Under the pieces are notes generated by a model, which was not told where the DNA came from, searched no databases, and saw only the letters and a program-made list of their open reading frames with translations. Source: Octopus sinensis (Eukaryota). From it: a DNA stretch of 64,000 nt. Below are positions 1,688 through 62,955 of the stretch, one piece after another. Where the stretch lies: positions 79,794,001 through 79,858,000 of the forward strand of contig NC_042999.1 in the NCBI RefSeq assembly GCF_006345805.1. Direction: 5' to 3'. Every line of letters starts with the position of its first letter. Within the stretch, counting starts at the first letter, position 1. The position numbers and the translations under genes were made by a program.

Positions 1688-2784
1688 AGAAATTGATATT
1701 ATTTTACTAGCTAGGAAGACTATCATAGAATTTGAGGGAAAATTGTGGACTAGGGCTGATACCCCAAATAATTTTGATATACCCATGAGCTCCAGTGAAT
1801 CGACGGAGGTCACTAATTTAGTAGGGACTTATTGAAATGCCCAAGTAGAGAGGTCCCGGAATTGCTAGGAGGTTTATATAGGGATGATGCATTATTCATC
1901 GTCCCTAGCAATAATAAATCGATCATTGAGGGAATAAGAAAGAATATTAGTAGATTTTTCAAAAATTTTAACTTAGGTATTACTTATGAATATAACACTA
2001 AGATAGTTAACTTTCTAGATGTTACTTTAGATTTAAACTCGAAATTATATTACCTATATAGAAAAGATTGTGAAATTACTAGATATGTAAATAAATTATC
2101 AAATCACCCCCCAAATATTCTGAAATCGATAGTTAAAAGTATTTCGAGAAGAATTACTAAATTATCATCTCACAATGAAATTTTAAATTCTCACTCATAT
2201 CATTACAATGTTGCCTTATCTAGGGCAGGATATAACCAGGAAATCACCTTCCTAGATCTTGGAAATTCAATTCTTTCGAATAAGAAAATAAATAAAAATA
2301 GCTCAAATAATATAGAATCTTCAATTTAAAAAAAATATGAATTAACCAAAACAGATAACCTATCATATAAACCTGATCCAAATAACAGAAATGGCAGACA
2401 AGACACAAATAAGTATAAAAAGTTAAATAAAATAAATATAAATGAAAATATAAAAATCTCACCCACTGATAAAAACCAAATAAATATATAGATAAGACTG
2501 AAGACAATAACAAAACTGTGAGGGATATGGATAACACCAATCTTTCCCACCCTTACTCAAATAAAAAATTCAAAAGTAAAAATATCGTATGGCTGAATAT
2601 ACCTTTCAACTACGCAATATCTACGAACATATATGGCAATTTTATGTCCATACTAGAAACAAACTTCCCTGCTTCCCATAAATATTATAAAATACTTTCT
2701 CGTAAATCAGTTAGAATATCATATTCTACTCTTCCAAATATAAGTACCATAATAGCTAGATTAAATAGAAAAATATTTAAATAG
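1688..2784 (+). pseudogene. Penelope-like element reverse transcriptase C-terminal half plus linker (Naiad-like), frameshifted
   Basis: Translations: IILLARKTII..FDIPMSSSESTEVTNLVG (cf. FDVTMGSxDGAExCELVG), GLYRDDA, VNFLDVTLDL, SNHPPNILKSI..ISRRI, KNIVWLNIPF..NFPASHKYYKILSRKSVRISYS. Frameshifts near 1830, 2325 and 2500. Confidence 0.88.
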
Positions 2785-2790
2785 CCAAAA

Positions 2791-2988
2791 AGATTGCTCT
2801 ATATTTTAAAACTGATGTAATACTTGCATTGTTTAATTAAATGAAGTCGCATGAAACGATCGTACTGCATTACCTTTGGATATCCTTGTTGCTTATTTTG
2901 ATTATAATCACCCCATTTTGAATTATATGGATAATACCATACCAAATTCTGGTGCCTTTAACTTAAGTACCATATTCAACTGAATCTA
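2791..2988 (+). mobile_element. PLE pseudo-LTR with the 3' half of a hammerhead ribozyme
   Basis: gcat-GAAA-cgatcg-TA-ctgc at 2849-2868. Homologous to 53650-53852. Ends in a (TA)/(TATG) tract. Confidence 0.75.
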
Positions 2989-3020
2989 AATATATATGTA
3001 TATATGTATATATATATAAA

Positions 3021-4372: not shown

Positions 4373-4619
4373 TCGTATATTCTAATTTATATTTTATAAA
4401 TCTGGTTGCTACAGACTTAAAAATCTGAAGTACATTGTACAGGAAGTGCTGACGGTAAAGAAATAAGATTTGAAGATGTATACAGCTAATGTTGGATCAT
4501 GTTAATGCTATAATGTGTATAGTATATGCAACATACAGTATTTATCTGCTAATAATGATGCATCGAAATGTAGTGATCCTGTTCATTCTATCTCTTCAGA
4601 CTCTTTTATATACATTTTC

Positions 4620-4836
4620 TATTTCTTTATTACCCACAAGGGGCTAAACACAGAACAAGAGCAGACAAACGGATTAAGTCGATCATATCGACCCTAGTGC
4701 GTCACTGGTACTTAATTTATCGACCCCGAAAGGATGAAAGGCAAAGTCGACCTCGGCGGAATTTGAACTCAGAACGTAACGGCAGACGAAATACGGCTAC
4801 ACATTTCGCCCGGCGTGCTAACGTTTCTGCCAGCTC
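4620..4836 (-). mobile_element. tRNA-derived SINE family A with 19-bp TSD
   Basis: A box tggcagaaacgttagc, B box gagttcaaattcc, and central gcctttcatcctttcggggtcgataaa. Direct repeat ctcttttatatacattttc at 4601-4619 and 4834-4852. Confidence 0.9.
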
Positions 4837-6449: not shown

Positions 6450-7030
6450 TGAATGGAGCAGATAAAATTCAGGCTACATATATTTCATAGCGAGTGGAAC
6501 CTCGAAAATAGTAATTACCCAAGCACGGTGTATACCACAGGCTACTCTTCAGGCCAAGGGTACCTTGATTATATGAAGTTTACATTACTATTAGATCCAT
6601 GTTAACTCGCGGAGGATTCGATGAAAATGCGTAGAATGCACAGTTTGAGTAGGGAATAGAAGTGTGAAGAGAAATTAAGAATGTGAGAAAAGAAAAAAGA
6701 AAATATATAAGGGGGTTGGAAAATTTAGGAGTAAATAATTTAAGCGGGGTCATTTCACTGATGGTTTCCAATAGGGCTATATATTTGTAGTCTAATATAC
6801 TGATTCATAGAATCATGGAAATCTCCTCTAGTGGACCCGGCCAGCAGTCCACATTGTTATCCAATACAAGGAGTATAATACTGAAATTTATGCAGCTGAA
6901 ATATTGGAGATCCGATCGATAAGATTTTGTATGAGTAGTATATAAGACATAAAAGTCAGGAGGTATGAGGGGGAATAGATTTATTTAGCCATTTGTCATT
7001 TTGAGGGTGACAGGCTTTTCGCAGCCTTTA
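6450..7030 (-). pseudogene. Highly decayed CR1/L2-group LINE 3' remnant
   Basis: Scattered traces of C-terminal motifs (LLYTT.., IRLQ..IG, SLW..P) with many lesions. Confidence 0.3.
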
Positions 7031-21910: not shown

Positions 21911-21944
<34 letters not shown>

Positions 21945-22322
21945 TCGGTTATTCTTTTACTTGTTTCAGTCATTTGACTGCGGCCATGCTGGAGTACCAC
22001 CTTAGTTGTGCAAATCGACCCCAGGACTTATTTCTTAAGCCTAGTACTTATCCTAGTGGCTTCTTTTGCTGAACTGTTAAGTTACGGGGGCGTAAACACG
22101 CCAGCACCGCTTTTCAAGCGGTAATGGGAGACAAATACAGAAACACACACACATATACATACATATGCTTCATTCAGTTTCCGTCTCCCAAATACCCTCA
22201 CAAGGCTTTGGTGGCCCTAGGCTTGGGTAGGTAGAAGTTACTTACCCAAGGTGCCACGGAGTGGAACTGAACCCGGAAAAATGTGGTTGGGAAACAAGCT
22301 TCTTACCACACACCTACGCTTG
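21945..22322 (-). mobile_element. SINE family D (internal microsatellite, CR1-like 3' stem-loop)
   Basis: Head gtgtggtaag..gggttcagttccac..cttgggtaag. Tail ggtactccagcatggccgcagtcaaatgactgaaacaagtaaaag. Confidence 0.85.
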
Positions 22323-27880: not shown

Positions 27881-29630
27881 AGAAATGGATGTGGCTGTAA
27901 TGGAATGCTACCTTCTGGGCAATCCGAAAAATAAGAATGAAGTACCCGCTAGGGGATATGGGAAAAGAATGCACAGAGCATGAAGCGACAAAGGCCTATT
28001 TGAATTAAGTGAACAAAATCTGTGTGAACAAGCTAGAGCCATCAGAAAGAATGAATGGTTATCTACAGTTGAACTGGAAAGCTTGGGGAGAGAAAGACCA
28101 GCGGTGAACGGAAGGATGAGGAAGATAATTATGGTAGTAGAGTTGAAGGAAAAAAACCAGCATAAAGCTGAGATTATTGATCAGGAAAGCGATGAGAGAA
28201 CCGAGGAACATATATCTATTTTAAATAAAATAATTGATATTTGGACACCTGGTAAACAGAGCTTTTGTACGGGGTTTAAAGAAGTAGACAAAAAGAAACT
28301 CAATGAATGGGTCAGGAGGATAAATGATATCACTGGTGATATCAGAACTGGCAACGTCACGACACATACAATCTGATAAATGCAATCTCGATCTTTTTAG
28401 CCCGGAAATAATCATGGTGGAAAAGGAGAATAACGCAGTTTATTAACGAGACCAGGAAACATATTAATATTCTGGAACGAAAAAAAAGAAAAAAAGAAAT
28501 GAAGCTCAGCGAGCGAAATATGTTGAGCTAGAGAGGTAGTATATGGTGAAGGAATCAATGTTGTTATTGAGGAATTAAAACAGAATTGAGTAATACAGAT
28601 TAAACAGATTTTCCGAACAAAATCAGAAACCAGTCTATCAGGAACTGGATGGGAAAGAATGAGATGAAAAAACCATGCTGGATGCTGAAGAAAGCAAAGG
28701 ATTCTGGGCAAACATATGGTCTCAGGAGAAACAACACGAAACTGAAGCAGAGTGGTTAAAGACACCCAAAGAGGAGAGTGGAGAGTATCAGCAGGAGGAT
28801 TTGAGAATAACCGAGGAGATTATCAGAGAACTGTGCAGGATAATTCCTAACTGGAAAGCGCCAGCTCTGCACAAGATAATAGCAAGACAGCTGGACGAAA
28901 TACTGAGCAGTGATATCCAAGTACCGGTCTGGATGACAAAAGAAGAAGGAAATACGGTTGGAAATTTCCGACCAATATCTTGATTGCCACTGATGTGGAA
29001 ACTGATGAGAGCCATCATATCAAATAGCATCTGTAAGTACCTAGATGAGAACGACCTACTCCCAGTATAACAAAAGGGGTATGGACGGAAGGGCAGAGGA
29101 ACGAAGGATCAATTGCTAATCGATAAGACTATCCTGGTTGACTGCAAGAAGAGACACAAATTTAGCGATGACATGGGTGGACTACAGGAAAGCATATGAC
29201 ATGGTCCCACACTCATGGATTAATACAAAACTCAATGACAACGTAGCTAACTGAACTCACAGCAAGGGGAGATAAGCTGGGAGAGGTAAACATCAAAAGA
29301 GGTACCTTTCAAGGGGTCAGTCTGTCATCTCTCCTATTTGTTGTCTGCATACTGTCACTAACCAGCGTTTTAAGAAAGATGCGTGTGAAGTAGGTACTAG
29401 GCAGGGTGAAGGTAAACAATCTGTGGTTTATGGATGACCTAAAGCGATTTGCTAAGACTGAGAAAGAATTTGAGAGTTTGATGGCAACTGTACAGATGAT
29501 TAGCAAACATATCGGCATGGAATTTGGGATCGAGAAATGTCGTGTAAAGATTCTCAAAAGGGGTAAAATCAGTAAAAGCCATGGGATTAACCTGGAAAGT
29601 GGCGAAACTCGTAAACCCGGGGTCTCGTAA
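27880..29630 (+). pseudogene. Dong/R4-clade LINE, N-terminal region + RT, internally deleted and frameshifted
   Basis: [104 protein letters not shown]. Confidence 0.9.
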
Positions 29631-30588
29631 GGCGGGTCCTCGTGAAGTGATGTATTACTGTAAGAGTATTTTGCACTATCTCAACAATCAAATTGCTTCA
29701 TTAAAGTGTACAATTCCATCAGAAAATTTTCAAAATCACAGTGGAATTACCACAGGCAGTACAAATTTATAGTGTTATAATAGAATTAGTTCGTACGAAG
29801 GGTAGATTATCAGATTAAAGGATTTATACATCTTAACTATGTCTACGTTTTACGCCCAAATAATGCTGCGATCATTTCTACGTTTCATGTTTCTGGAGTC
29901 CTGATGTGGATTAGATAATATAGCTTGTCATCTGTGCTGTGGAAGATTTAATGAATTATATAGGTCAATTACCTATAAATATTTCTATTATTATAGAAAT
30001 TTTTGATGTAGTTGTGGTTGTTGTTGTTGTTATTCAGCTGGAGGTTCATTCTGATTCACATTCCGGACCCATACACTGCCATATGTGCTCCATCTGCGAA
30101 AAAGCAAATACATATAAAAAGCCTGCAAAAACCAAAAAAGAAAAAAAAAACATTTCTAAGCGCAGAGAAGAAAAAACATAAAAACGACGCAGGTCCACAG
30201 CTACATTCACACAAGCACTCGTATACAACACAGATTTATACAAACAATGACATCTAATCCACTTTGAAATGTACGTAGTATTTTTACATACATATACTTA
30301 TACATAAACTCACCTAGACAAGATTCAACACGAATATGCCATCTAAATAATGTTGAGTATTTTTTATTCATTTGGTTCTGTTGTTTTGCTTCTTGTACTA
30401 AGATGCTTTTGAACTTATTAACTTACATAGCTGTAGTTCCTGGGCCGCTATATTCGAATTCCCCTAATACACTTAAATCATATATACACACGTGCATGGT
30501 ATACAAACATACACACATACATATATACATGCATAAACGCACATTTATACATACATACATACTTACGTACATTTGTATATGTATGCAG

Positions 30589-34794: not shown

Positions 34795-35272
34795 TTTATT
34801 TATTTTATGTAATTTCAGCTCAAGAGCTGTGGCCATGCTGGGGCACCGTCATTTGCTGTTGCTATATGATTTTACTTCACGAATGCTTTTTAGCAATTGC
34901 TATTTGGTGCATGACAGAGTTCGATGCAGCTGCCCTCATCTGCACCTCCTGCCGTGAAGTTTGGTTCATCTGGGATACCTGACAGGAAGAGATCCAGTTT
35001 TATTTTAAACAAATCTGCATCCACCCCATGCAGGTCTCTCAGGTCTTTCGGGAGGATATTGAAGAGCTGTGGGCCTCTGAAGCCCAGGCTATCACAGTAT
35101 CTTGTCCTACATCTTGATGGCAAATTTGAAGTCCTTGGCACTATGCAGTGGCGCCAAGTTCTAGCATTTGTGTAACTCTCGATGCCAAAGTTTGGGACAA
35201 GTCCTTCTAGGATCTTCCAGATGTATAGTATGGCATATCTTTCTCGCCTAATCTCTAAGGAATAGAGCGTAT
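34795..35272 (-). mobile_element. CR1-group LINE 3' end (ORF2 C-terminus + 3' UTR)
   Basis: RRERYAILYIWKILEGLVPNFGI..RTWRHCIVP..SLGFRGPQLFNILPKDLRDL..FKIKLDLFLSGIPDEP. 3' UTR stem-loop and A-rich tail. Confidence 0.85.
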
Positions 35273-35310
35273 TGAATATATATACATTTATATATATATA
35301 TATATATAAG

Positions 35311-35354
<44 letters not shown>

Positions 35355-36389: not shown

Positions 36390-36479
36390 CACACGCACGC
36401 ACACGCACACACAAATATATATATACACATACATACATACTACAGACATATATATATATATATATATAAACTTCTTTCA

Positions 36480-36740
36480 TTTTCATTCTTTATTCTTGTA
36501 CTTGTTTCAGTCATTTGACTGCGGCCATGTTGGAGCACCACCTTTAGTCAAACAAATCGACCCGAGGACTTATTCTTTGTTAGCCTAGTACATATTCTAT
36601 CGACTTACTTTTCCGAACCGCTTGGTTACAGAGACATAAGCACACCAACATCGGTTGTCATGCGATTGTGTGGGGATCAAACACAGACACTGACACACAA
36701 ATAATACATACATACGTACATACCACACACACAACACACA

Positions 36741-37142: not shown

Positions 37143-37180
<38 letters not shown>

Positions 37181-37212
37181 TTTATTTAAAGCAGCAGAAA
37201 ATTCAACAAAAT

Positions 37213-37250
37213 CTGTTACTCTGAGTTTCTCGTTGCCGTTCATCAGACAG
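37213..37250 (-). ncRNA. Minimal type I hammerhead ribozyme
   Basis: ctgt CTGATGA a-cg-gcaa-cg-a GAAA ctc-a-gag TA acag. Stem I ctgt/acag, GUA cleavage triplet. Confidence 0.8.
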
Positions 37251-38293
37251 TTTTTGCTAGAATGGAACCGATATATCAATTCAATCTATACTCTTACAAA
37301 CGCTACACCTTTAAAAAGAAATGGACTTGTTTGATTAGCCCTTTAGAAAAAACGGTTAATCTTCGAGCGATAAACAAAAAGGTCAAAAATATATGTATAT
37401 ATATATAAAAACTTATAAAAATTATAAAATCCGAGGAAAAAACTTACATTGAATAAAATACATATTGACGTTAATGAAGAAAGTGCAAATTAATGCATAG
37501 AAATTAAACCTGTTATAAATATTACACTGCAATACATATTTATATTAAAATCTACATTTATATATCAACATACACAAAATTATGCGCGCAAACGCCATAC
37601 ATATACAGACGTATGAATATAAATCTAAATATACACATAAAAGCATGTGTACATATATTCACGCAAACCATCTCGCACGCAAGTTAAAATTGATCTATGT
37701 AGCGATTCTCATATACTGAGTAAGGGGGGGGAACGAAAGAAAGGTAGAGAGAGAAAAAGGAACGAAGGTGGTGTGGGGAAAAAATTACGTATACAAGCAG
37801 TGTAACGGCATTATTGGCATATATGGAGACAAGTATACATACACAAGTTTGAATGGATACATATACATACAGTCGTGTATATGTGTACTTAAGCACAAAC
37901 ATACTTTCACTTACACATACACAGATACGCATGCTTACAAATACATATGCTTTGCTATACACATACTTATATCAACCTTCTAATTTTGACAACATTGCTT
38001 TTTTTTAAAAAAAACATTGCTTTTTTTAAAAAAATGGGTGCATTAATAAAAATATATACGAAAGACATATAAAATAAAATATAACATCCTATTTTGGGTC
38101 ATTTATAAATAATCAAGGTAATCCTATACAATACAATAACATGAAAACAAAGTTGGAGGTTTTTCCTAATATATATGTAGAAACATAAGACTTTGCTATA
38201 CGGATTAAGATCCGCATAGCTTGGAAACAAAATCCATCGTAGCGCTCATCGTTCAAGAGTCAAAATCAAAATCAAAAATACAAAATATATACT

Positions 38294-38888
38294 CTATCCA
38301 TATAGTATATTTATATTCGACATTTTAAATTTAGCCGCGTGCCTACATAAGTTCATTAGCTCACTTCTTTGATTCAAAGAATTATTGTCTTTGAATAAGA
38401 TGTACATTTTTTCTAATAGACAAAGCTTGCACTTGAAATTATTTTTGTATGTTCCATGCCTGTATGGTGCCGCCCTGTCCAGAATGCTCCATGTCACGTT
38501 GAAAGGTGGGGCTTCCTTTTCTTTTAGTTCCCAGACATATTTTGCTAGGCTGGTTTTCTTCCTATTCTCTGGGTATTTAAATGAATTTTTATGAGAATAA
38601 AATCTTGTTTCAAATGAATTTTCTGAAGCCCCTGTGTATGTCTTGTATTCCGATGAGCCTTCCACTTGCACCTTGGCTATATAAACTACTCCTTTCACCA
38701 GACATTTCCCTTCTAACGGACAGGAGCTTTCGTTTTTGAAATTACATTTCTTAATGGGCTCGGCACATGTCTAATCTCAATTAGCTTGCTATTATGTTGG
38801 CTAATGTAAGAGGCGAAATTTCTGCAACAAGAATAGCTAACCTTCAGGGTTCTTCTGTTAAATATCCTATAGAATTTATGACCCTGCT
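38294..38888 (-). pseudogene. PLE linker + GIY-YIG endonuclease (one frameshift near 38765)
   Basis: GHKFYRIFNRRTLKVSYSC / CNFKNESSCPLEGKCLVKGVVY..TYTG..FETRFYSHKNSF..TSLAKYVW..WSIL..CKLCLLEK..LNQRSEL..CRH. Confidence 0.92.
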
Positions 38889-39649
38889 TGTTGTCAAAAT
38901 TAGAAGGTTGATATAAGTATGTGTATAGCAAAGCATATGTATTTGTAAGCATGCGTATCTGTGTATGTGTAAGTGAAAGTATGTTTGTACTTAAGCACAC
39001 ATATACACGACTGTATGTATATGTATCCATTCAAACTTGTGTATGTATACTTGTCTCCATATATGCCAATAATGCCGTTACACTGCTTGTATACATAATT
39101 TTTTCTTATTTCGTTTTTTTCCCAACACCTCCTTCGTTCCTTTTTCTCTCTCTACCTTTCTTTCGTCCCCCCCTTACTCAGTATATGAGAATCGCTACAT
39201 AGATCAATTTTAACTTGCGTGCGAGATGGTTTGCGTGAATATATGTACACATGCTTTTATGTGTATATTTATATTTATATTCATACGTCTGTATATGTAT
39301 GGCGTTTGCGCGCATAATTTTGTGTATGTTGATATATATATGTAGATTTTAATATAAATATGTATTGCAGTGTAATATTTATAACAGGTTTAATTTCTAT
39401 GCATTAATTTGCACTTTCTTCATTAACGTCAATATGTATTTTATTCAATGTAAGGTTTTTTCCTCGGATTTTATAATTTTTATAAGTTTTTTTATATATA
39501 TATACATATATTTTTGACCTTTTTGTTTATCGCTCGAAGATTGACCGTTTTTTCTAAAGGGCCAATCAAACAAGTCCATTTCTTTTTAAAGGTGTAGCGT
39601 TTGTAAGAGTATAGATTGAATTGATATATCGGTTCCATTCTAGCAAAAA

Positions 39650-39687
39650 CTATCTGATGAACGGCAACGAGAAACTCAGAGTAACAG
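39650..39687 (+). ncRNA. Minimal type I hammerhead ribozyme (stem I mismatch)
   Basis: ctat CTGATGA acggcaacga GAAA ctcagag TA acag. Inverted twin of 37213-37250. Confidence 0.7.
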
Positions 39688-39819
39688 ATTTTGTTGAATT
39701 TTCTGCTGCTTTAAATAAAGCATATTACTCTACCACTGGTATTTAAGTACTTTTTTTCCACCTTGTTTCACATTTATGTGTTTTCTCCGGTATATATATA
39801 TATAATATATATAATATAT

Positions 39820-39851
<32 letters not shown>

Positions 39852-39879
39852 CATACGTATATATATATATATATACATA

Positions 39880-40356: not shown

Positions 40357-40477
40357 CCTGAGTAAACACATAAATGTGAAACAAGGTGGAAAAAGAATAC
40401 TCAAATCTGTCCGACGAACGGGAACGGGAAACTCCCAGTAACAGCTTTTGTTAAATTTCTGCTGCTTTTAAATAAAG

Positions 40478-40529: not shown

Positions 40530-40700
40530 TATGTGTGTGTGTGTCTTTGTGTCTTTGTGTCTGTGCTTGTCCGCCCACAACCTCGCTTAACAACCGATGT
40601 TGGTGTATTTACCTCCTTGCAACGTAGCGGTTCGGCGGAAGAGATCACAAGAATAAGTATCTGGGTTAGAAAGTATAATGATTGAAACAAATAAAAGAAT
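40530..40700 (+). mobile_element. SINE family D 3' part
   Basis: cgcttaacaaccgatgttggtgt..agcggttcggc..gattgaaaca. Confidence 0.7.
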
Positions 40701-40714
40701 ATATATATGTATAT

Positions 40715-41092
40715 GAAATAATATTATTATGGAGGCAACACAGGCGAAGTCTAAAAGAACATAATTGAAATACGAACCTAAAACTCATATAAATTGAAAT
40801 AAAATTCTAAATTCTATAAGTAGACAATATTAATGCAATGTATAAAATATGATTGAATTTTAATTTCATCATACAATGTACGATTTTACATGTAATGACA
40901 AGTGATATTTTCTTAAATTTAGTCGTTTGTATTTAAATTCATGTGTTATGCATTGCATTGATATTGTCTATTTATATATATTTGTGTAGTTTGGAATTTT
41001 ATTTCCGTTTTATAGCGAATATATGTATTTCATATAAGTATTTCAATTATGTTTCAATTATTTAGACTTCGCCTCCTTAACAATATTATTTC
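40715..41092. mobile_element. Degenerate foldback/MITE
   Basis: gaaataatatt..ggaggc..gaagtctaaa..aacataattgaaatac is mirrored by gtatttcaattatgtt..tttagacttcgcctcc..aatattatttc. Inner tagacaatat/atattgtcta are also mirrored. Confidence 0.75.
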
Positions 41093-41117
41093 TAACATAG
41101 CTATTTATATATATATA

Positions 41118-43629: not shown

Positions 43630-45220
43630 ATAATTCTACTTTTTCCATATGGCCTAGAGTTTTGAGGGGTGGGGTAATTCGATTACATTGACTGTAGTAC
43701 GTTAAGTGGTACGTTATTTTATCGACCCCAGAAGTATGAAGGACATAGTTGATCACGGTGGGATTTGAAATCTAAAGGTAAAGAGTCTGTACAAATGTTG
43801 CTGAGTACTTTGTCCGATGCGCAAATGATTCTTCTGTTTCACCACCTTAACAAATATAACAATACCTTCAAATTTTGTCACAAGGTCAACAATTTCGAAG
43901 GAGAAAGCAAGTTGATTATATCGAGCCCAGTGTTCAACTCATACTTATTTTATCGACTCCTAAAGGATAAAAGGCAAAGCTGTCCTGAGCGGAATTCGAA
44001 CTCAGAACATAAAGACGCACGAATTGCCGCTAAGAATTTTGCGTGCTAACGATTCTGCCAGCTCGCCGCCTTCTTAGTAAATATATTTCTTTCTAATATA
44101 GACAGACCGTCTGAAATAACATTTACACCCAGTGTTTCACAGGTACTTATTTTATCGACATGTGGAGGCGCAATGGCCCAGTGGTGAGGGCAGCGGACTC
44201 GCGGTCATAGGATCGCGGTTTCGATTCCCAGACCGGGCGTTGTGAGTGTTTATTGAGCGAAAACACTTAAAGCTCCACGCAGCTCCGGCAGGGGATGGTG
44301 GTGATCCCTGCTGTACTCTTTCACCACAACTTTCTCTCACTCTTACTTCCTGTTTCTGTTGTACCTGTATTTCAAAGGGCCGGCCTTGTCACTCTCCGTG
44401 TCACGCTGAATATCCCCGAGAACTACGTTAAGAGTACACGTGTCTGTGGAGTGCTCAGCCACTTACACGCTAATTTCACGAGCAGGCTGTTCCGTTGATT
44501 CGGATCAACTGGAACCCTCGTCGTCGTAACCGACGGAGTGCTTCCATATTCCATTTTATTTGGTGAAAGGCCAAAAATCGACCTCTGTGGAAGTTTAACT
44601 CAGCATGTTGCGACAAACGAAATACCTATTTCTTTACTACTCATAAGGGGCTAAACACAGAGAAGACGGATTAAGTGAGTAACTGGTACTTATTTAATCG
44701 ACCCCGAAAGGATGAAAGGCAAATTCGACCTCGGTGGTATTTGAACTCAGAACGTAGCGTCAGACGAAATATCTATTTCTTTACTACCCACACGGGGCTA
44801 AACACAGGGAGGGCAAACAAGGACAGACAAACGGATTAAGTCGATTATATCGACCCCAGTGCCTAACTGGTACTTATTTAATCGACCCCGAAAGGATGAA
44901 AGGCAAAGTCGACCTCGGCGGAATTTGATCTCAGAACGTAGCGGCAGACGAAATACCGCTAAGCATTTCGCCCGGCGTGCTAACGATTCTGCCAACTCGC
45001 CGCCTTTGTTGCAGCTGATATTAATGATTTCAAATTTTGGTGCAAGGCCAGAAATTTCGTGGGAGATGAAAACCAATTACAACTACCCCAGTGCTGATAC
45101 TTATTTTATCGACCCGAAAGGATGAAAGACAATCTCGACCTCGGCGGAATTTGAATTCGGACGAAATACCCCAAGGCATTTTGCCCGGCGCGGTATCGAT
45201 TCCGCCAGCTTGTCGCTACT
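43630..45220 (-). mobile_element. Cluster/tandem array of SINE family A copies
   Basis: Repeated atcgaccccgaaaggatgaaaggcaaagtcgacctcggcggaatttgaactcagaacg units, all on the minus strand. Confidence 0.88.
44163..44550 (+). mobile_element. SINE family B (tRNA-like head), nested in a family A copy
   Basis: ggaggcgcaatggcccagtggtgagggcagcggactcgcgg..ggtttcgattccc. Its 3' half is shared with 51106-51290. Confidence 0.85.
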
Positions 45221-46326: not shown

Positions 46327-46383
<57 letters not shown>

Positions 46384-46432
46384 AATAAATGAAAGAATGG
46401 AGTCGAACGAAGATGTTAACAAAATTCCTTTA

Positions 46433-46514
46433 CTCTCGACATATGTTTCGAAGACAACATGGTTTCATTCCAAAGGAATAAAGGGTGCATTATGCAATCT
46501 TCTCATCAGGAAAG
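46433..46514 (-). ncRNA. Type I hammerhead ribozyme with branched stem II
   Basis: Reverse-complement twin of 46626-46707. Confidence 0.82.
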
Positions 46515-46625
46515 AAAGGGACCCTCTCTCGACAACAAGACAAACAAAAATTTCGATGACTGCCTACATGGTAAACAAAACGATAACCGTTTTTGTTTGT
46601 CTTGTTGTCGGGAGAGGCTCCCTTT

Positions 46626-46707
46626 CTTTCCTGATGAGAAGATTGCATAATGCACCCTTTATTCCTTTGGAATGAAACCATGTTGTCTTCGAAACATATG
46701 TCGAGAG
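46626..46707 (+). ncRNA. Type I hammerhead ribozyme with branched stem II
   Basis: ctttc CTGATGA gaaga..tcttc GAAA catatg TC gagag. Intact core, palindromic stem III ACATATGT, GUC triplet. Confidence 0.85.
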
Positions 46708-46907
46708 TAAAGGAATTTTGTTAACATCTTCGTTCGACTCTATTCTTTCATTTATTCATATACAACACACAAATTTCTGCACATGAACCTGGAGTTTCTA
46801 CCCTTGGACAGGTCGCTTCAACCGTGTTTCTGACGTGAATTTGCTACCCTGGTTTCGGTTCAACGAATTTTCCATGCTGACTATAAACATAGGATAATTC
46901 ATTCACC

Positions 46908-46945
<38 letters not shown>

Positions 46946-46946
<1 letters not shown>

Positions 46947-47326
46947 TCTTTACTCTTTTACTATTTTACTTGTTTCAGTCATTTGACTGCGGCCATGCTG
47001 GAGCACCGCCTTTAGTCGAGCAAATCGATCCCGGGACTTATTCTTTGTAAGCCTAGTACTTATTCTATCGGTCTCTTTTGCCGAACCGCTAAGTGACGGG
47101 GACGTAAACACACCAGCATCGGTTGTCAAGCAATGGTAGTGGGACAAACACAAACACACACACACATACATATATACATATATACGACAGGCTTCTTTCA
47201 GTTTCCGTCTACCAAATCCACTCACAAGGCATTGGTCGGCCCGGGGCTATAGCAGAAGACACTTGCCCAAGATGCCACGCAGTGGGACTGAACCCGGAAC
47301 CTACTTACCACACAGCCACTCCTGCG

Positions 47327-47372: not shown

Positions 47373-47525
47373 GGTCCCGGGTTGATTCGGGGTTAACCAC
47401 AGTAAATAAGGTACTCAATACATAGCAGAGTAAAATTAATTTATTATATAGAAGGAGCTTCTACAGGACTGATGATTTCTCTTGAATGAAACAGTTCTAG
47501 TCCTGTAGAAGCTCCTTCTATATAA

Positions 47526-47530
<5 letters not shown>
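47371..47530. mobile_element. Miniature inverted pLTR: 30-bp perfect hairpin around an HHR core
   Basis: Arms 47441-47470 and 47499-47528. Loop region CTGATGA t-ttc-tctt-gaa-t GAAAC agttcta GTC. Confidence 0.75.
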
Positions 47531-47566
<36 letters not shown>

Positions 47567-51957: not shown

Positions 51958-52971
<1,014 letters not shown>

Positions 52972-53001
52972 AAATAAGCCACAAGGATATCCAGAGGTAA
53001 T

Positions 53002-53091
53002 GCAGTATGATCGTTTCATGCGACTCCATTTAATTGGAGAATGTAATCATTTCATTACATCAATTTAAATTGTAGAGCAATCCTCAGCTGC
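53002..53091 (-). ncRNA. Type I hammerhead with long stem II (stem III mutated)
   Basis: gcag CTGAGGA t-tgc..(~60 nt)..gca-t GAAA cgatca TA ctgc. Confidence 0.65.
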
Positions 53092-53640
53092 AGAATGACA
53101 TAGAATTTAATTAAATTAGAACGCATTAGTATAATTTTACCCCAAATCTCCGAGAAGATAAGGAGATAGACATCTTTTATCAGCAGCATCACAGTTGTAA
53201 CTGAAATGTTTTCAAGAAAGACTCTGCCTGTCATTGATTTTTCTGTTATTTAGTTTTGAAATACGGTGGTGGGGTCAGTTTTAATGTATAGACTAGTTTA
53301 TCAAATCCTTTGTATATTTAAGGCTGAGAGAAGACAGAGGGTAGTATATGTTTGGAGTAGGTTCGGTGGAGTAAACAGACATTCGAAATGGTATAGTCAT
53401 AAAATCAAGATATATTTGAAGCAATGTCATGAGGTTTAGTAAAAGAATACTTCAAACAAGTTGCTGGCTGCTATTAAGGGATCGCTTATTAGTAGATCAG
53501 TGCTAATAGGACAGGGGAAGTCTTATCATGTAGTCCTATACTTAATTACTATAGTAGTTACTTATAGTAGTTAACTGTAGTACTACAGTTATACTAATTA
53601 TACTAATGTGTCCTAATTTAATTAATTTCTATGTCTTTGT

Positions 53641-53730
53641 GCAGCTGAGGATTGCTCTACATTTTGAATTGATGTAATGAAATGATTGCATTGTTCAATT
53701 AAATGGAGTCGCATGAAACATTCTCACTGC
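53641..53730 (+). ncRNA. Degenerate hammerhead twin
   Basis: gcag CTGAGGA ttgc..gcat GAAA cattctca ctgc. Stem III and the cleavage triplet have decayed. Confidence 0.45.
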
Positions 53731-53849
53731 ATTACCTCTAGATATATTTGCTACTTATTTTGATTTTAATCACCTTATTTTCAAATTGTATGGATAATAC
53801 CAAACTAAATTCTGGTGCCTCAACTTAAGTACCATATTCATCAGAATCT

Positions 53850-53919
<70 letters not shown>

Positions 53920-58649: not shown

Positions 58650-58865
58650 AGAGGCGGTGAGCTGGCAGAAACGTTAGCACGCCAGGTGAAATGTTCAGCG
58701 GTATTTCGTCTGTCTTTACGTTCTGAGTTCAAATTCCGCCGAGCTCGACTTTGCCTTTCATCCTTTCAAGATCGATAAATTAAGTACCAGTTACGTACTG
58801 AGGTCGATGTAATCGACTGGTCCTCTCCCCCAAAATTTCGATCCTTGTGCCTAGAGTAGAAAAAA
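58650..58865 (+). mobile_element. SINE family A, full length
   Basis: ggcggtgagctggcagaaacgttagcacgcc..gagttcaaattccgcc..ttgcctttcatcc..cttgtgcctagagtagaaaa. Confidence 0.92.
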
Positions 58866-59749
58866 AACTAAGAATATAATGTACCCATGAGGTGCATGCA
58901 AGAGCAGGTTGACGACGACAACATACAGTAGAAGAAATGGCTGGTGCATAAGCTAATGGATCGGAGAAAATCGATGTTAGTTCAATAAAATCATACAGAC
59001 AGATACTGCAAGAATATACAAATACACACAGTGGTTTGATAAACAATATTGAAATAAACATTCTGTCTACACATCGAAAAGCTCCGACACTACGGATGGT
59101 TACAGAAACAGTACGCATACGCGCAGCCGATATTGACCTCACACAAAAGTTCAAAAGTGCGAATGAAAGAAGTAATCATGCTTCAAACATATCATGCACC
59201 ATTTCAAAAACAGTAGAATCAGAAGGAGAAAAATAAAATTAAACTCAAATACTGTCAACCGGGACATGCACAAATTACAAATATCCATACTTACAATCAA
59301 TACCATCAATCAAATAATTCATACACAAACCAAACTCACAGATCGATACAATCCACACGCACAACCAACCATCAAGTGACACACCAGCGCGAGCAGGTTA
59401 ATGATTATGAATTTAAAAACGATCACAATGAAAACACAGTAAAACACAATATATATGTGACTGGCCATATTTGTAGCAAAACATCAGCTAAAATTTGTAA
59501 CAAATAACGATAAAGAAATGAACTATAATTAGTGAAGATGTTTATTTTATTGAGAGTATCATTCTTTCAAAGTATAACTATATCGGTTACAACACAAGGT
59601 TACACAATAATATTCTTGCTAGACACATGATACACACACACGGACTCACATATAGACAGAAACAGACGTAAACACACACACACGCGCGGACAAATACGCA
59701 TGCATATATATATATATAATCATATATATACCTACATACATACACACAT

Positions 59750-62344: not shown

Positions 62345-62955
62345 CGAGCTGGCAGAGTCGTTAGCACGCTGGGCGAAATGATTAGCGGTATTTCCTCTGC
62401 TGCTACGTTCTGAGTTCAGATTCCGGCGAGGTCGACTTTGCCTTTCATCCTTTCGGGGTCGATTAAATAAGTACCAGTTACGCACTGGGTTCGATATAAT
62501 CGACTTAATCCGTTTCTCTGTCATTGTTTGTCCTCTCTGTGTTTAGCCCCTTGTGGGTAGTAAAGAAATAGGTATTTCGTCTGTCTTTATGTTCTGAGTT
62601 CAAACTCCGCCGAGGTCGACTTTGCCTTTCATCTTTTCGGGGTCGATTAAATAAGTACCAGTTACGCACTGGGGTAGATATAATCGACTTAACCCGTCTG
62701 TCTGTCCTTGCTTGTCCCCTCTGTGTGTAGCCCCTTGTGTGCAGTAAAGTAATATGAAACGTTTGCACGCCGGGTGAAATGTTTAGCTACATTTCGTCTG
62801 TCTTTACATTTTGAGTTCAAATTCTGCCGGGGTCGACTTTGCCTTTCATCCTTTCGGTTTCGATAAATTAAGTATCAGTTGCGTACTGGGCTCGATCTAA
62901 TCGACTGGCCCCCTCCCCACAAAATTTCGGGTCTTGTGCCTAAAGTAGAAAGAAA
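62345..62955 (+). mobile_element. Tandem trimer of SINE family A
   Basis: Three successive gagttca..gtcgactttgcctttcatc..aagtaccagtt..aatcgact units. Confidence 0.9.

What the first reader, a model, noticed from the sequence alone, without database searches (positions are those of the whole stretch)
37180..39790. Naiad-like Penelope element boxed by ~815-bp inverted pLTRs, each with a minimal hammerhead
Seen: a nearly intact GIY-YIG ORF with a CxC..CPLxGKC-type linker and a CxLC..CRH end, between near-identical inverted arms. The 38-nt HHRs have a 2-bp stem II with GCAA loop and an A.A mismatch where a G-C pair (10.1-11.1) normally lies. Established: inverted pLTR structures arise at PLE 5' truncation. 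Inference: this is a recent insertion whose ribozyme is about as small as an HHR can be.
Basis: partly seen in the sequence, partly recalled or inferred. Interest (0 to 1): 0.7.

Follow-up and report, generated by a model that had tools for sequence, protein, structure and literature searches.

The report
Truncated Hydra-clade Penelope retrotransposon, tiny hammerhead
This is a broken, likely young copy of a known kind of jumping gene (a Hydra-type Penelope-like retrotransposon, not a Naiad) lying in a TA repeat; its two mirror-image ends likely come from two separate reverse-transcription starts, and each carries a small hammerhead-ribozyme motif that is predicted to cut RNA only weakly and in pairs, so it is mostly ordinary.

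Summary
Inverted arms lie at 37180-37994 and 38889-39720 (804 matches, 9 substitutions, 5 indels). A GIY-YIG ORF lies at 38294-38770 (-). Both arms carry a 38-nt hammerhead with a 2-bp helix II and an A·A apposition at 10.1/11.1. The label is wrong. The endonuclease is C-terminal, follows an RT-thumb remnant, and has no cysteines between GIY and YIG; it carries CxxC..E and N..CxH motifs, has a hammerhead and sits in (TA)n. These features define the Hydra clade; Naiads have an N-terminal EN, CCHH and no canonical hammerhead. The copy is dead: about 520 of roughly 710 codons are missing, there is a frameshift, and two conserved residues are changed. A 70-nt tail on one arm only fits published two-site RT initiation, and three other insertions in this window show the same asymmetry. 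The ribozyme is not at a size limit: natural 1-2-bp helix II hammerheads are known, and 15 of 25 published Hydra hammerheads have a mismatch at 10.1/11.1. Only the A·A pair is unusual (0 of 25). Whether it is a family trait or decay could not be tested. Verdict: a new family member of a known clade; modest interest.

The parts
37144..37179 (.). (TA)18 microsatellite, left half of the target; a target-site duplication cannot be delimited
37180..37994 (-). Left arm: the element's own 3' end (distal 3' UTR / pLTR), contiguous with the ORF, ending without the tail
37213..37250 (-). Type I hammerhead motif, sense to the ORF: 4-bp stem I (extendable), intact core, A10.1·A11.1, 2-bp helix II with GCAA loop, palindromic helix III with 1-nt loop; predicted cleavage 3' of the A at 37217
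37995..38293 (-). Proximal 3' UTR, single copy; includes a 21-bp tandem duplication (37991-38034). Whole 3' UTR 1114 nt
38294..38770 (-). C-terminal GIY-YIG endonuclease of Hydra type (linker C9-x-F11-x5-C17-PLEGKC; VVY...YTG; R56, H60, E120, N133; C114xxC117; C142xH144); stop codon at 38294-38296
38747..38775 (-). Zone holding the frameshift that separates the RT-thumb remnant from the linker/EN frame
38776..38888 (-). Remnant of the RT thumb (HKFYRIFNRRTLKVSYSC); marks the 5' truncation point
38889..39720 (+). Right arm: inverted, 5'-truncated second copy of the 3' end, joined directly to the truncation point with no TA or foreign DNA between
39650..39687 (+). Second hammerhead motif; same core and A·A, but one stem I pair broken at 39652
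39721..39790 (+). 70-nt 3' extension ('tail') present on this arm only
39791..39879 (.). Degenerate (TA)n, right half of the target
40357..40477 (+). Separate, more diverged mini-insertion of a sister subfamily in (TA)n: inverted 50-nt piece of the tail (90% identical) joined to a tail-less 3' end (84-87% identical) with a decayed hammerhead at 40407-40444 (A·G at 10.1/11.1, U4C, broken helix III palindrome)

Best explanation
This is a dead, 5'-truncated copy of a Hydra-type Penelope-like retrotransposon in a (TA)n repeat, whose inverted arms likely arose when an intact master's RT-endonuclease nicked both target strands and likely primed two cDNAs on uncleaved element RNA from two start sites 70 nt apart. 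SHOWN here: domain order (RT thumb, linker, EN, stop), EN motifs and fold, 3' UTR with hammerhead, (TA)n flanks, head-to-head junction, tail on one arm only. INFERRED from Frangieh 2024 (a Poseidon element in vitro: both strands cut and extended, two internal RT starts that define the tail, unprocessed RNA as substrate): one cDNA began at the inner site (37180) and ran about 1.7 kb into the RT thumb; the other began at the outer site (39790) and ran about 0.9 kb; the two unfinished cDNAs were joined head to head by repair. Because the arms overlap in sequence, this needs two RNA templates or two passes over one. The copy never encoded a working protein and has since drifted about 0.5% per arm. 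PREDICTED for the hammerhead: alone it folds with the CUGA core trapped by helix III; two copies pair through the palindromic helix III and open both cores. Cleavage would be slow, because helix II is marginal and is closed by A·A. Since both arms carry A·A, the source RNA likely had it, so efficient cleavage was likely not needed for this insertion.
For: Clade: best hit is a 713-aa RT-EN protein with the EN at 563-707, 56% identical, E 6e-52, bearing RWR and DKT motifs. Of the 13 hits of 380 aa or more among the best 150, 10 show a YRDD/FRDD upstream of the linker and none shows it downstream. No Cys lies between GIY and YIG in this copy; 1 of 105 scorable rows (of 125) has two. The motif set matches the Hydra definition and, by eye, the Hydra rows of Fig. 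S7, including the thumb motif IFNR...SYSC. Hammerhead context: helix III ACTC-x-GAGT occurs in 5 of 25 published Hydra hammerheads, and Hydra-2_aMil shares the same stem I. Mechanism: the tail is on the inverted arm, so that arm cannot be a copy of the tail-less cDNA. The same one-sided tail recurs at 40357-40477, 46378-46907 (~150 nt) and 52968-53853 (~90 nt). Two-site initiation and the dispensability of cleavage in vitro. Dimer: the unconstrained co-fold of two 63-nt copies gives helix III paired between molecules with cores open (-27.0 kcal/mol, against 2 x -12.4 for monomers); helix III self-duplex -7.4; helix II alone +0.7.
Against: No RT core survives, so the clade rests on EN motifs, a short thumb and unnamed relatives; no tree with named clade references was built (one search holds only hits). 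The CxCx5C linker is CxFx5C here. The mechanism is borrowed from a Poseidon element with a 30-40-nt tail; no Hydra element has been tested in the papers I read. The dimer gains only about 2 kcal/mol over monomers and the monomer folds are no better than shuffles (z 0.37 and -0.40). The inferred full length (~3.3 kb, from a 1.1-kb 3' UTR) exceeds the '<3 kb' typical of Hydra. No master copy or family consensus was found. Arm divergence dates the insertion only if the arms began identical and escaped gene conversion.
Confidence: 0.82

Rival explanations
1. It is a Naiad (N-terminal EN) element.
For: Naiads also insert into (TA)n, form inverted ends, have tails and occur in octopuses.
Against: The EN is followed by a stop and a 1.1-kb UTR and preceded by RT thumb. 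No CCHH and no CX2-5CxxC motif. A canonical hammerhead core is present, which Naiads lack.
Confidence: 0.01
2. It is a Neptune or Nematis element.
For: C-terminal EN with a Cys-rich linker and a hammerhead are shared.
Against: These clades have two Cys between GIY and YIG and a CxxC-type linker; this copy and 104 of 105 scorable rows do not have the former. The thumb matches Hydra rows, not Neptune or Nematis rows (by eye).
Confidence: 0.03
3. Same element, but the inversion arose otherwise: two separate insertions into one microsatellite followed by a deletion, or a switch of the RT onto its own cDNA.
For: (TA)n repeats attract repeated insertions; a sister copy lies 570 bp away. Junction microhomology could not be read without a master.
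Against: No TA or foreign DNA at the 38888/38889 junction. Copying the tail-less cDNA could not create the 70-nt tail. Four head-to-head units in this window show the same asymmetry, and the arrangement is described as typical.
Confidence: 0.1
4. The A·A / 2-bp helix II hammerhead is the family's selected, working ribozyme rather than a weakened one.
For: Both arms carry A11.1 and the sister copy carries another purine, G, so 3 of 3 copies in the window have no pair there. Core, stem I and the palindromic helix III are intact in the left arm. Mismatches at this position are the norm in Hydra (15 of 25). PLE hammerheads can be protein-assisted.
Against: 0 of 25 Hydra hammerheads have a purine·purine mismatch. 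U·U was reported to be the most active mispair. One base change separates this motif from a 3-bp helix II. The sister copy is decayed at other positions too. I recall related octopus repeats having U at 11.1 (recall only, no call).
Confidence: 0.25
5. A fold-back or MITE-like DNA transposon with long terminal inverted repeats that captured a nuclease fragment, or an assembly artefact.
For: Long, near-identical terminal inverted repeats; several indels lie in or beside simple runs.
Against: The left arm is the continuation of the ORF's own 3' UTR; the ends are unequal; hammerheads are present; 9 substitutions and a 15-nt indel separate the arms, so they are not one collapsed sequence.
Confidence: 0.03

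Closest known systems
[quoted passage not shown] 2021, PMC8557442)
   Same: C-terminal GIY-YIG EN without CCHH; Cx(C)x5C-P linker spacing; CxxC and CxH flanking the catalytic E and N; thumb motif; hammerhead near the 3' end; (TA)n target; an inverted 5'-truncated copy is noted for Penelope-13_HM.
   Different: Second linker Cys is Phe in this copy; 3' UTR is 1.1 kb (about 0.2-0.3 kb in the two Acropora consensi seen); helix II has 2 bp with A·A, against 3 bp or more with G-C, G·U, U·U or U·C; tail is 70 nt.
Hydra-1_Obim (Octopus bimaculoides)
   Same: Same clade, same target, and a host of probably the same group (inferred).
   Different: A different family: EN linker and hammerhead differ plainly by eye, and 0 of 6 short arm or tail motifs occur in the paper's supplement.
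Hydra-2_aMil and Penelope-3_HM hammerheads
   Same: Hydra-2_aMil has the same 4-bp stem I and the same helix III stem; Penelope-3_HM has the same helix III and loop.
   Different: Both have a 4-bp helix II, closed by G-C and by U·U respectively; 40-42 nt against 38.
Poseidon element PAc of Anolis (Frangieh et al. 2024, PMC11167929)
   Same: Works like it, by inference: AT-rich target, optional tail between two RT start sites, hammerhead retained uncut in genomic copies.
   Different: Other clade (CCHH, no linker finger); tail 30-40 nt; its RT starts lie inside the ORF; none of this is tested for Hydra.
Naiad
   Same: (TA)n target, inverted ends, tail.
   Different: Domain order, CCHH, CX2-5CxxC and hammerhead all differ.

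Membership tests
Hydra clade PLE | GIY-YIG EN C-terminal to RT in one ORF | tested here: met
   RT-thumb remnant upstream, stop after EN; best relative has EN at 563-707 of 713
Hydra clade PLE | CCHH absent (no two Cys between GIY and YIG) | tested here: met
   0 Cys in this copy; 1 of 105 scorable rows has two
Hydra clade PLE | CxCX5C linker | tested here: inconclusive
   Spacing exact (C9, 11, C17) but position 11 is Phe in this decayed copy; Cys in 104 of 119 relatives; master unavailable
Hydra clade PLE | CxxC before catalytic E and CxH after catalytic N | tested here: met
   C114xxC117..E120; N133..C142xH144
Hydra clade PLE | RWK and DKT motifs, divergent RT4, no IFD | not testable with these tools
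   Region absent from this copy; nearest full-length relative P0001 has RWR at 37 and DKT at 115
Hydra clade PLE | Hammerhead motif near the 3' end | tested here: met
   37213-37250 (-), sense to the ORF, core intact; helix II shorter than in the 25 published
Hydra clade PLE | Insertion in (TA)n | tested here: met
Hydra clade PLE | RT phylogeny within Hydra | not testable with these tools
   No RT core in this copy; the EN tree holds database hits only, without named clade references
Naiad | EN N-terminal to RT, joined by KR-rich and CxC region | tested here: not met
Naiad | CX2-5CxxC and CCHH motifs in EN | tested here: not met
Naiad | No canonical hammerhead | tested here: not met
   Hammerhead core with three helices present
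Neptune / Nematis | CCHH motif inside the GIY-YIG core | tested here: not met
GIY-YIG nuclease superfamily | Fold and catalytic Y/G/R/E/N residues | tested here: met
   Model aligns to I-TevI, Z 9.2, rmsd 2.3, 89 residues; Y30, Y45, G47, R56, E120, N133 present. Pfam and PDB sequence searches were blank and Foldseek had no match at E<=0.001
Type I hammerhead ribozyme | Core C3-A9, G12-A14, A15.1-U16.1, H17 with three helices | tested here: met
   helix III is plausible only between two copies
Type I hammerhead ribozyme | Usual R10.1-Y11.1 pair (common, not universal) | tested here: not met
   A·A in both arms; natural U·U exceptions known
Type I hammerhead ribozyme | Self-cleavage | not testable with these tools
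   Needs an assay

The most novel reading that the evidence does not exclude
A recently active Hydra family spread with a hammerhead whose helix II is cut to two base pairs closed by a purine·purine mismatch and which still cleaves, but only as an RNA dimer or with the element's protein. Such motifs would be invisible to Rfam and to the published min-HHR descriptor (helix II of 3 bp or more), and the same RNA dimer could deliver the two templates that make head-to-head insertions with 70-150-nt one-sided tails.
Probability: 0.15. Interest if true: 0.6.

Novelty: new member of a known kind. Interest (0 to 1): 0.3.

Why it matters
Mostly it corrects a label: this is Hydra, not Naiad, and a family distinct from the one octopus Hydra consensus I saw. 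Two points have some value. First, four insertions in one 64-kb window show a tail at one end only; this fits, in a clade not yet tested, the two-site RT initiation shown in vitro for a Poseidon element, with tails two to four times longer. Second, both arms share a hammerhead with an A·A mismatch. If it cleaves, it widens the natural range of the motif and shows a gap in current descriptors. If it does not, it is genomic support for the view that cleavage is dispensable for PLE insertion. Neither would overturn a field. Penelope-like elements make up 6.83% of the Octopus vulgaris assembly, with 336 recently active insertions in 31 families, so such copies are common if the host is an octopus.

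Tried and rejected
Family consensus or master copy: not found. Word-based protein search with the EN among longer proteins: 183 candidates, 0 hits, although the exhaustive search found 5188 relatives. Spurious translations of the arm, used to read position 11.1 from other copies: 0 candidates in two searches. Bacterial/archaeal genome contigs, scanned for contaminant copies: 0 matches to the hammerhead pattern; the alignment was too variable to search with; 53 pattern matches and 0 confirmed with P0001. Metagenome and viral contig collections stayed unchecked, and no host genome was on hand, so copy number, master ORF and the family state of 11.1 are open. Supplements of Craig 2021 (0 of 6 motifs) and Bonar 2026 (0 of 2 motifs; the file holds no consensus library) gave nothing; file 1 of the Cervera 2014 supplement was not searchable; bioRxiv supplements were not seen. 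Lünse et al. 2017 on small dimeric PLE hammerheads was not held; it may already list this variant. Three searches for activity data on 10.1/11.1 mismatches led only to the U·U statement; none mentioned A·A in the passages seen, which does not show absence from print. Pfam, PDB-sequence and Foldseek searches were blank or weak; only the wide structural alignment showed the fold. Rfam: no hammerhead; the 45 rows at E<=10 were mostly microRNA families matching TA-rich sequence. The EN tree (66 rows: the window's EN plus 65 hits) places it with P0047, P0022, P0002 and P0003 (99/83), with P0001 next, but has no named clades. Target-site duplication and junction microhomology at 38888/38889 could not be determined.

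Full report
What was checked. The unit starts at 37180, right after (TA)18, and ends at 39790, right before another TA run. The arms 37180-37994 and 38889-39720 align with 804 matches, 9 substitutions and 5 indels. A 158-aa frame at 38294-38770 (-) carries the motifs described. Both arms hold a hammerhead core with a 2-bp helix II, a GCAA loop and A at 10.1 and 11.1. Such motifs are far above chance: 6 in the window with stem I required, against 0.05 in 40 shuffles. Rfam does not see them.

What it is. The exhaustive protein search gave 5188 relatives at E<=0.001; the best is a 713-aa protein with this domain at its C-terminus, 56% identical. Aligning long relatives back to the window shows a short RT-thumb piece at 38776-38886, upstream of the nuclease and in another frame. 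So the order is RT, linker, EN, stop, then a 1114-nt 3' UTR. The fold is GIY-YIG. Craig et al. 2021 define Naiad by an N-terminal EN with CX2-5CxxC and CCHH motifs and no canonical hammerhead. They define Hydra by a C-terminal EN without CCHH, a CxCX5C linker, CxxC and CxH around the catalytic E and N, RWK and DKT in the RT, a hammerhead and (TA)n targets. The element fails the Naiad tests and meets the Hydra tests that can be applied, except that the second linker Cys is Phe. The comparison with named Hydra, Neptune and Nematis proteins was by eye on the paper's Fig. S7, not in a tree. It is not Hydra-1_Obim. The host is probably an octopod: the best named relative is from Argonauta hians, and the flanking repeats look like octopus repeats to me (recall, no call).

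State of the copy. It matches residues 518-707 of a 713-aa relative, so about 520 codons are missing. There is a frameshift in 38747-38775. Two conserved residues differ: Phe for Cys (104 of 119 relatives) and Glu for Lys (121 of 124). The catalytic residues remain. Arm divergence is 1.1% (95% interval 0.5-2.1%). With the octopus calibration quoted by Bonar et al. 2026 (distance 0.09 = 25 million years), that is about 1.5 million years (0.7-2.9), if the host is an octopus and the arms began identical. 'Young' is fair; 'currently active' is not shown.

How it most likely arose. The right arm runs 70 nt past the point where the left arm meets the TA repeat. Frangieh et al. 2024 showed for a Poseidon element that both strands are cut and extended, that reverse transcription starts at two internal RNA sites whose spacing is the genomic tail, that uncut RNA is the main substrate, and that the hammerhead cleaves only with protein present. 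Applied here by inference: two cDNAs were primed on opposite strands of the TA target, one from the inner site (about 1.7 kb long) and one from the outer site (about 0.9 kb), and were joined head to head. The tail on the inverted arm excludes copying from the tail-less cDNA. Three more units in this window have a tail at one end only: 40357-40477 (a sister subfamily), 46378-46907 and 52968-53853. A fourth small hairpin at 47437-47531 shows no clear tail. At the tail-less ends the tailed copy continues with 2-5 bases that match the TA repeat, at or one base past the boundary. This hints at slight primer pairing, but the DNA is AT-rich, and Frangieh et al. found no homology at their start sites.

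The hammerhead. In the Hydra table of Craig et al. (26 rows, one a duplicate, so 25 families) position 10.1/11.1 is U·U in 14, U·C in 1, G·U in 2, G-C in 7 and ambiguous in 1; none is purine·purine, the shortest helix II is 3 bp and the smallest motif 40 nt. So this motif is the smallest of that set by 2 nt and has an unusual mismatch. It is not at a limit: Perreault et al. 2011 report natural helix II of two and even one base pair, and note that U·U is the most active mispair; Cervera and de la Peña 2014 describe PLE hammerheads without helix III that cleave weakly and only as dimers; engineered minizymes have no helix II. The published min-HHR descriptor needs 3 bp in helix II and would miss this one. 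Computed folding: monomers trap the core and are no more stable than shuffles; two copies co-fold into the dimeric form with open cores, by a small margin. Stem I extends past a 1x1 loop, so the functional unit is probably 55-60 nt. For A·A as a real trait: it is in both arms, and the sister copy also has a purine. Against: the sister is decayed elsewhere, one base change would give a 3-bp helix, and I recall related repeats with U there (untested). All attempts to read the family state failed.

Papers seen. PMC8557442: text parts 1-2 of 10, sections 11 and 12, passages, supplement parts 2, 52 and 58 of 59 and searches. PMC4209133: parts 1-2 of 4 and passages of supplement file 2. PMC11167929: parts 1-3 of 4. 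bioRxiv 10.64898/2026.07.22.740005: part 1 of 5, not relied on. PMC3088659, PMC544870, PMC7229834, PMC6155905, PMC2837043, PMC13282606: passages only, plus a supplement search for the last. Lünse et al. 2017: not held, recalled only; it may list this variant.

Verdict. A real, correctly described, 5'-truncated Penelope-like insertion, misfiled as Naiad; it is best filed as a new family of the Hydra clade, with the RT-based tests open. The inverted structure and tail are known features. The A·A hammerhead is a small open question. Interest 0.3.

Noticed in passing
window 40357-40477: 121-bp mini-insertion of a sister subfamily in (TA)n: inverted 50 nt of the tail joined, with about 3 shared bases, to a tail-less 3' end that begins at hammerhead stem I. 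Its two parts do not overlap, as in classic twin priming.
   Followed up: partly
window 46378-46907: Another head-to-head unit in (TA)n, unrelated in sequence: arms 169 of 173 identical, hammerheads with a G-C closing pair and a long loop II at 46438-46509 (-) and 46631-46702 (+), ~150-nt tail on the right only.
   Followed up: partly
window 52968-53853: Older head-to-head unit: arms 149 of 169 identical; large hammerhead with a stable 5-bp helix III at 53006-53087 (-), degenerate copy near 53645 (+); ~90-nt tail on the right only.
   Followed up: partly
window 1689-2990 (+): Broken RT of a second, divergent Hydra-like family (matches at 1689-1832, 1847-2257, 2530-2781), with an AT-rich insert, no EN match, and then the same 3' end as the 53-kb unit, tail included, ending in TA. 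Internal deletion or EN-less derivative; not resolved.
   Followed up: partly
window 47437-47531: 95-bp hairpin insertion near (TA)n with a hammerhead core at 47469-47507 (U·U at 10.1/11.1, 3-bp helix II) whose stem I is cut off at the inversion point.
   Followed up: partly
window 6475-6552 (-): A further hammerhead-like motif with long loop II and palindromic helix III, unlinked to any ORF match found.
   Followed up: no
window 40699-41110: Old AT-rich inverted repeat, 64% identical over 456 columns; origin unknown.
   Followed up: no
window 37247-37160 (-) and 39656-39745 (+): The AUG inside the hammerhead core opens a short frame (29 codons in the tailed arm by my reading), recalling the Anolis element whose ORF starts within its hammerhead; here it ends in the tail and is probably chance.
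   Followed up: no
window 34893-35315 (-), 27984-29769 (+): Frames that look like fragments of non-LTR retrotransposon ORFs (identification from recall, not searched).
   Followed up: no
window 36448-36727, 21914-22278, 46915-47299; 4616-4836, 44674-44999, 58659-58866, 62345-62955: Several dispersed repeat families at 75-92% identity, SINE-like by recall; the window shows no obvious host exon near the finding.
   Followed up: no
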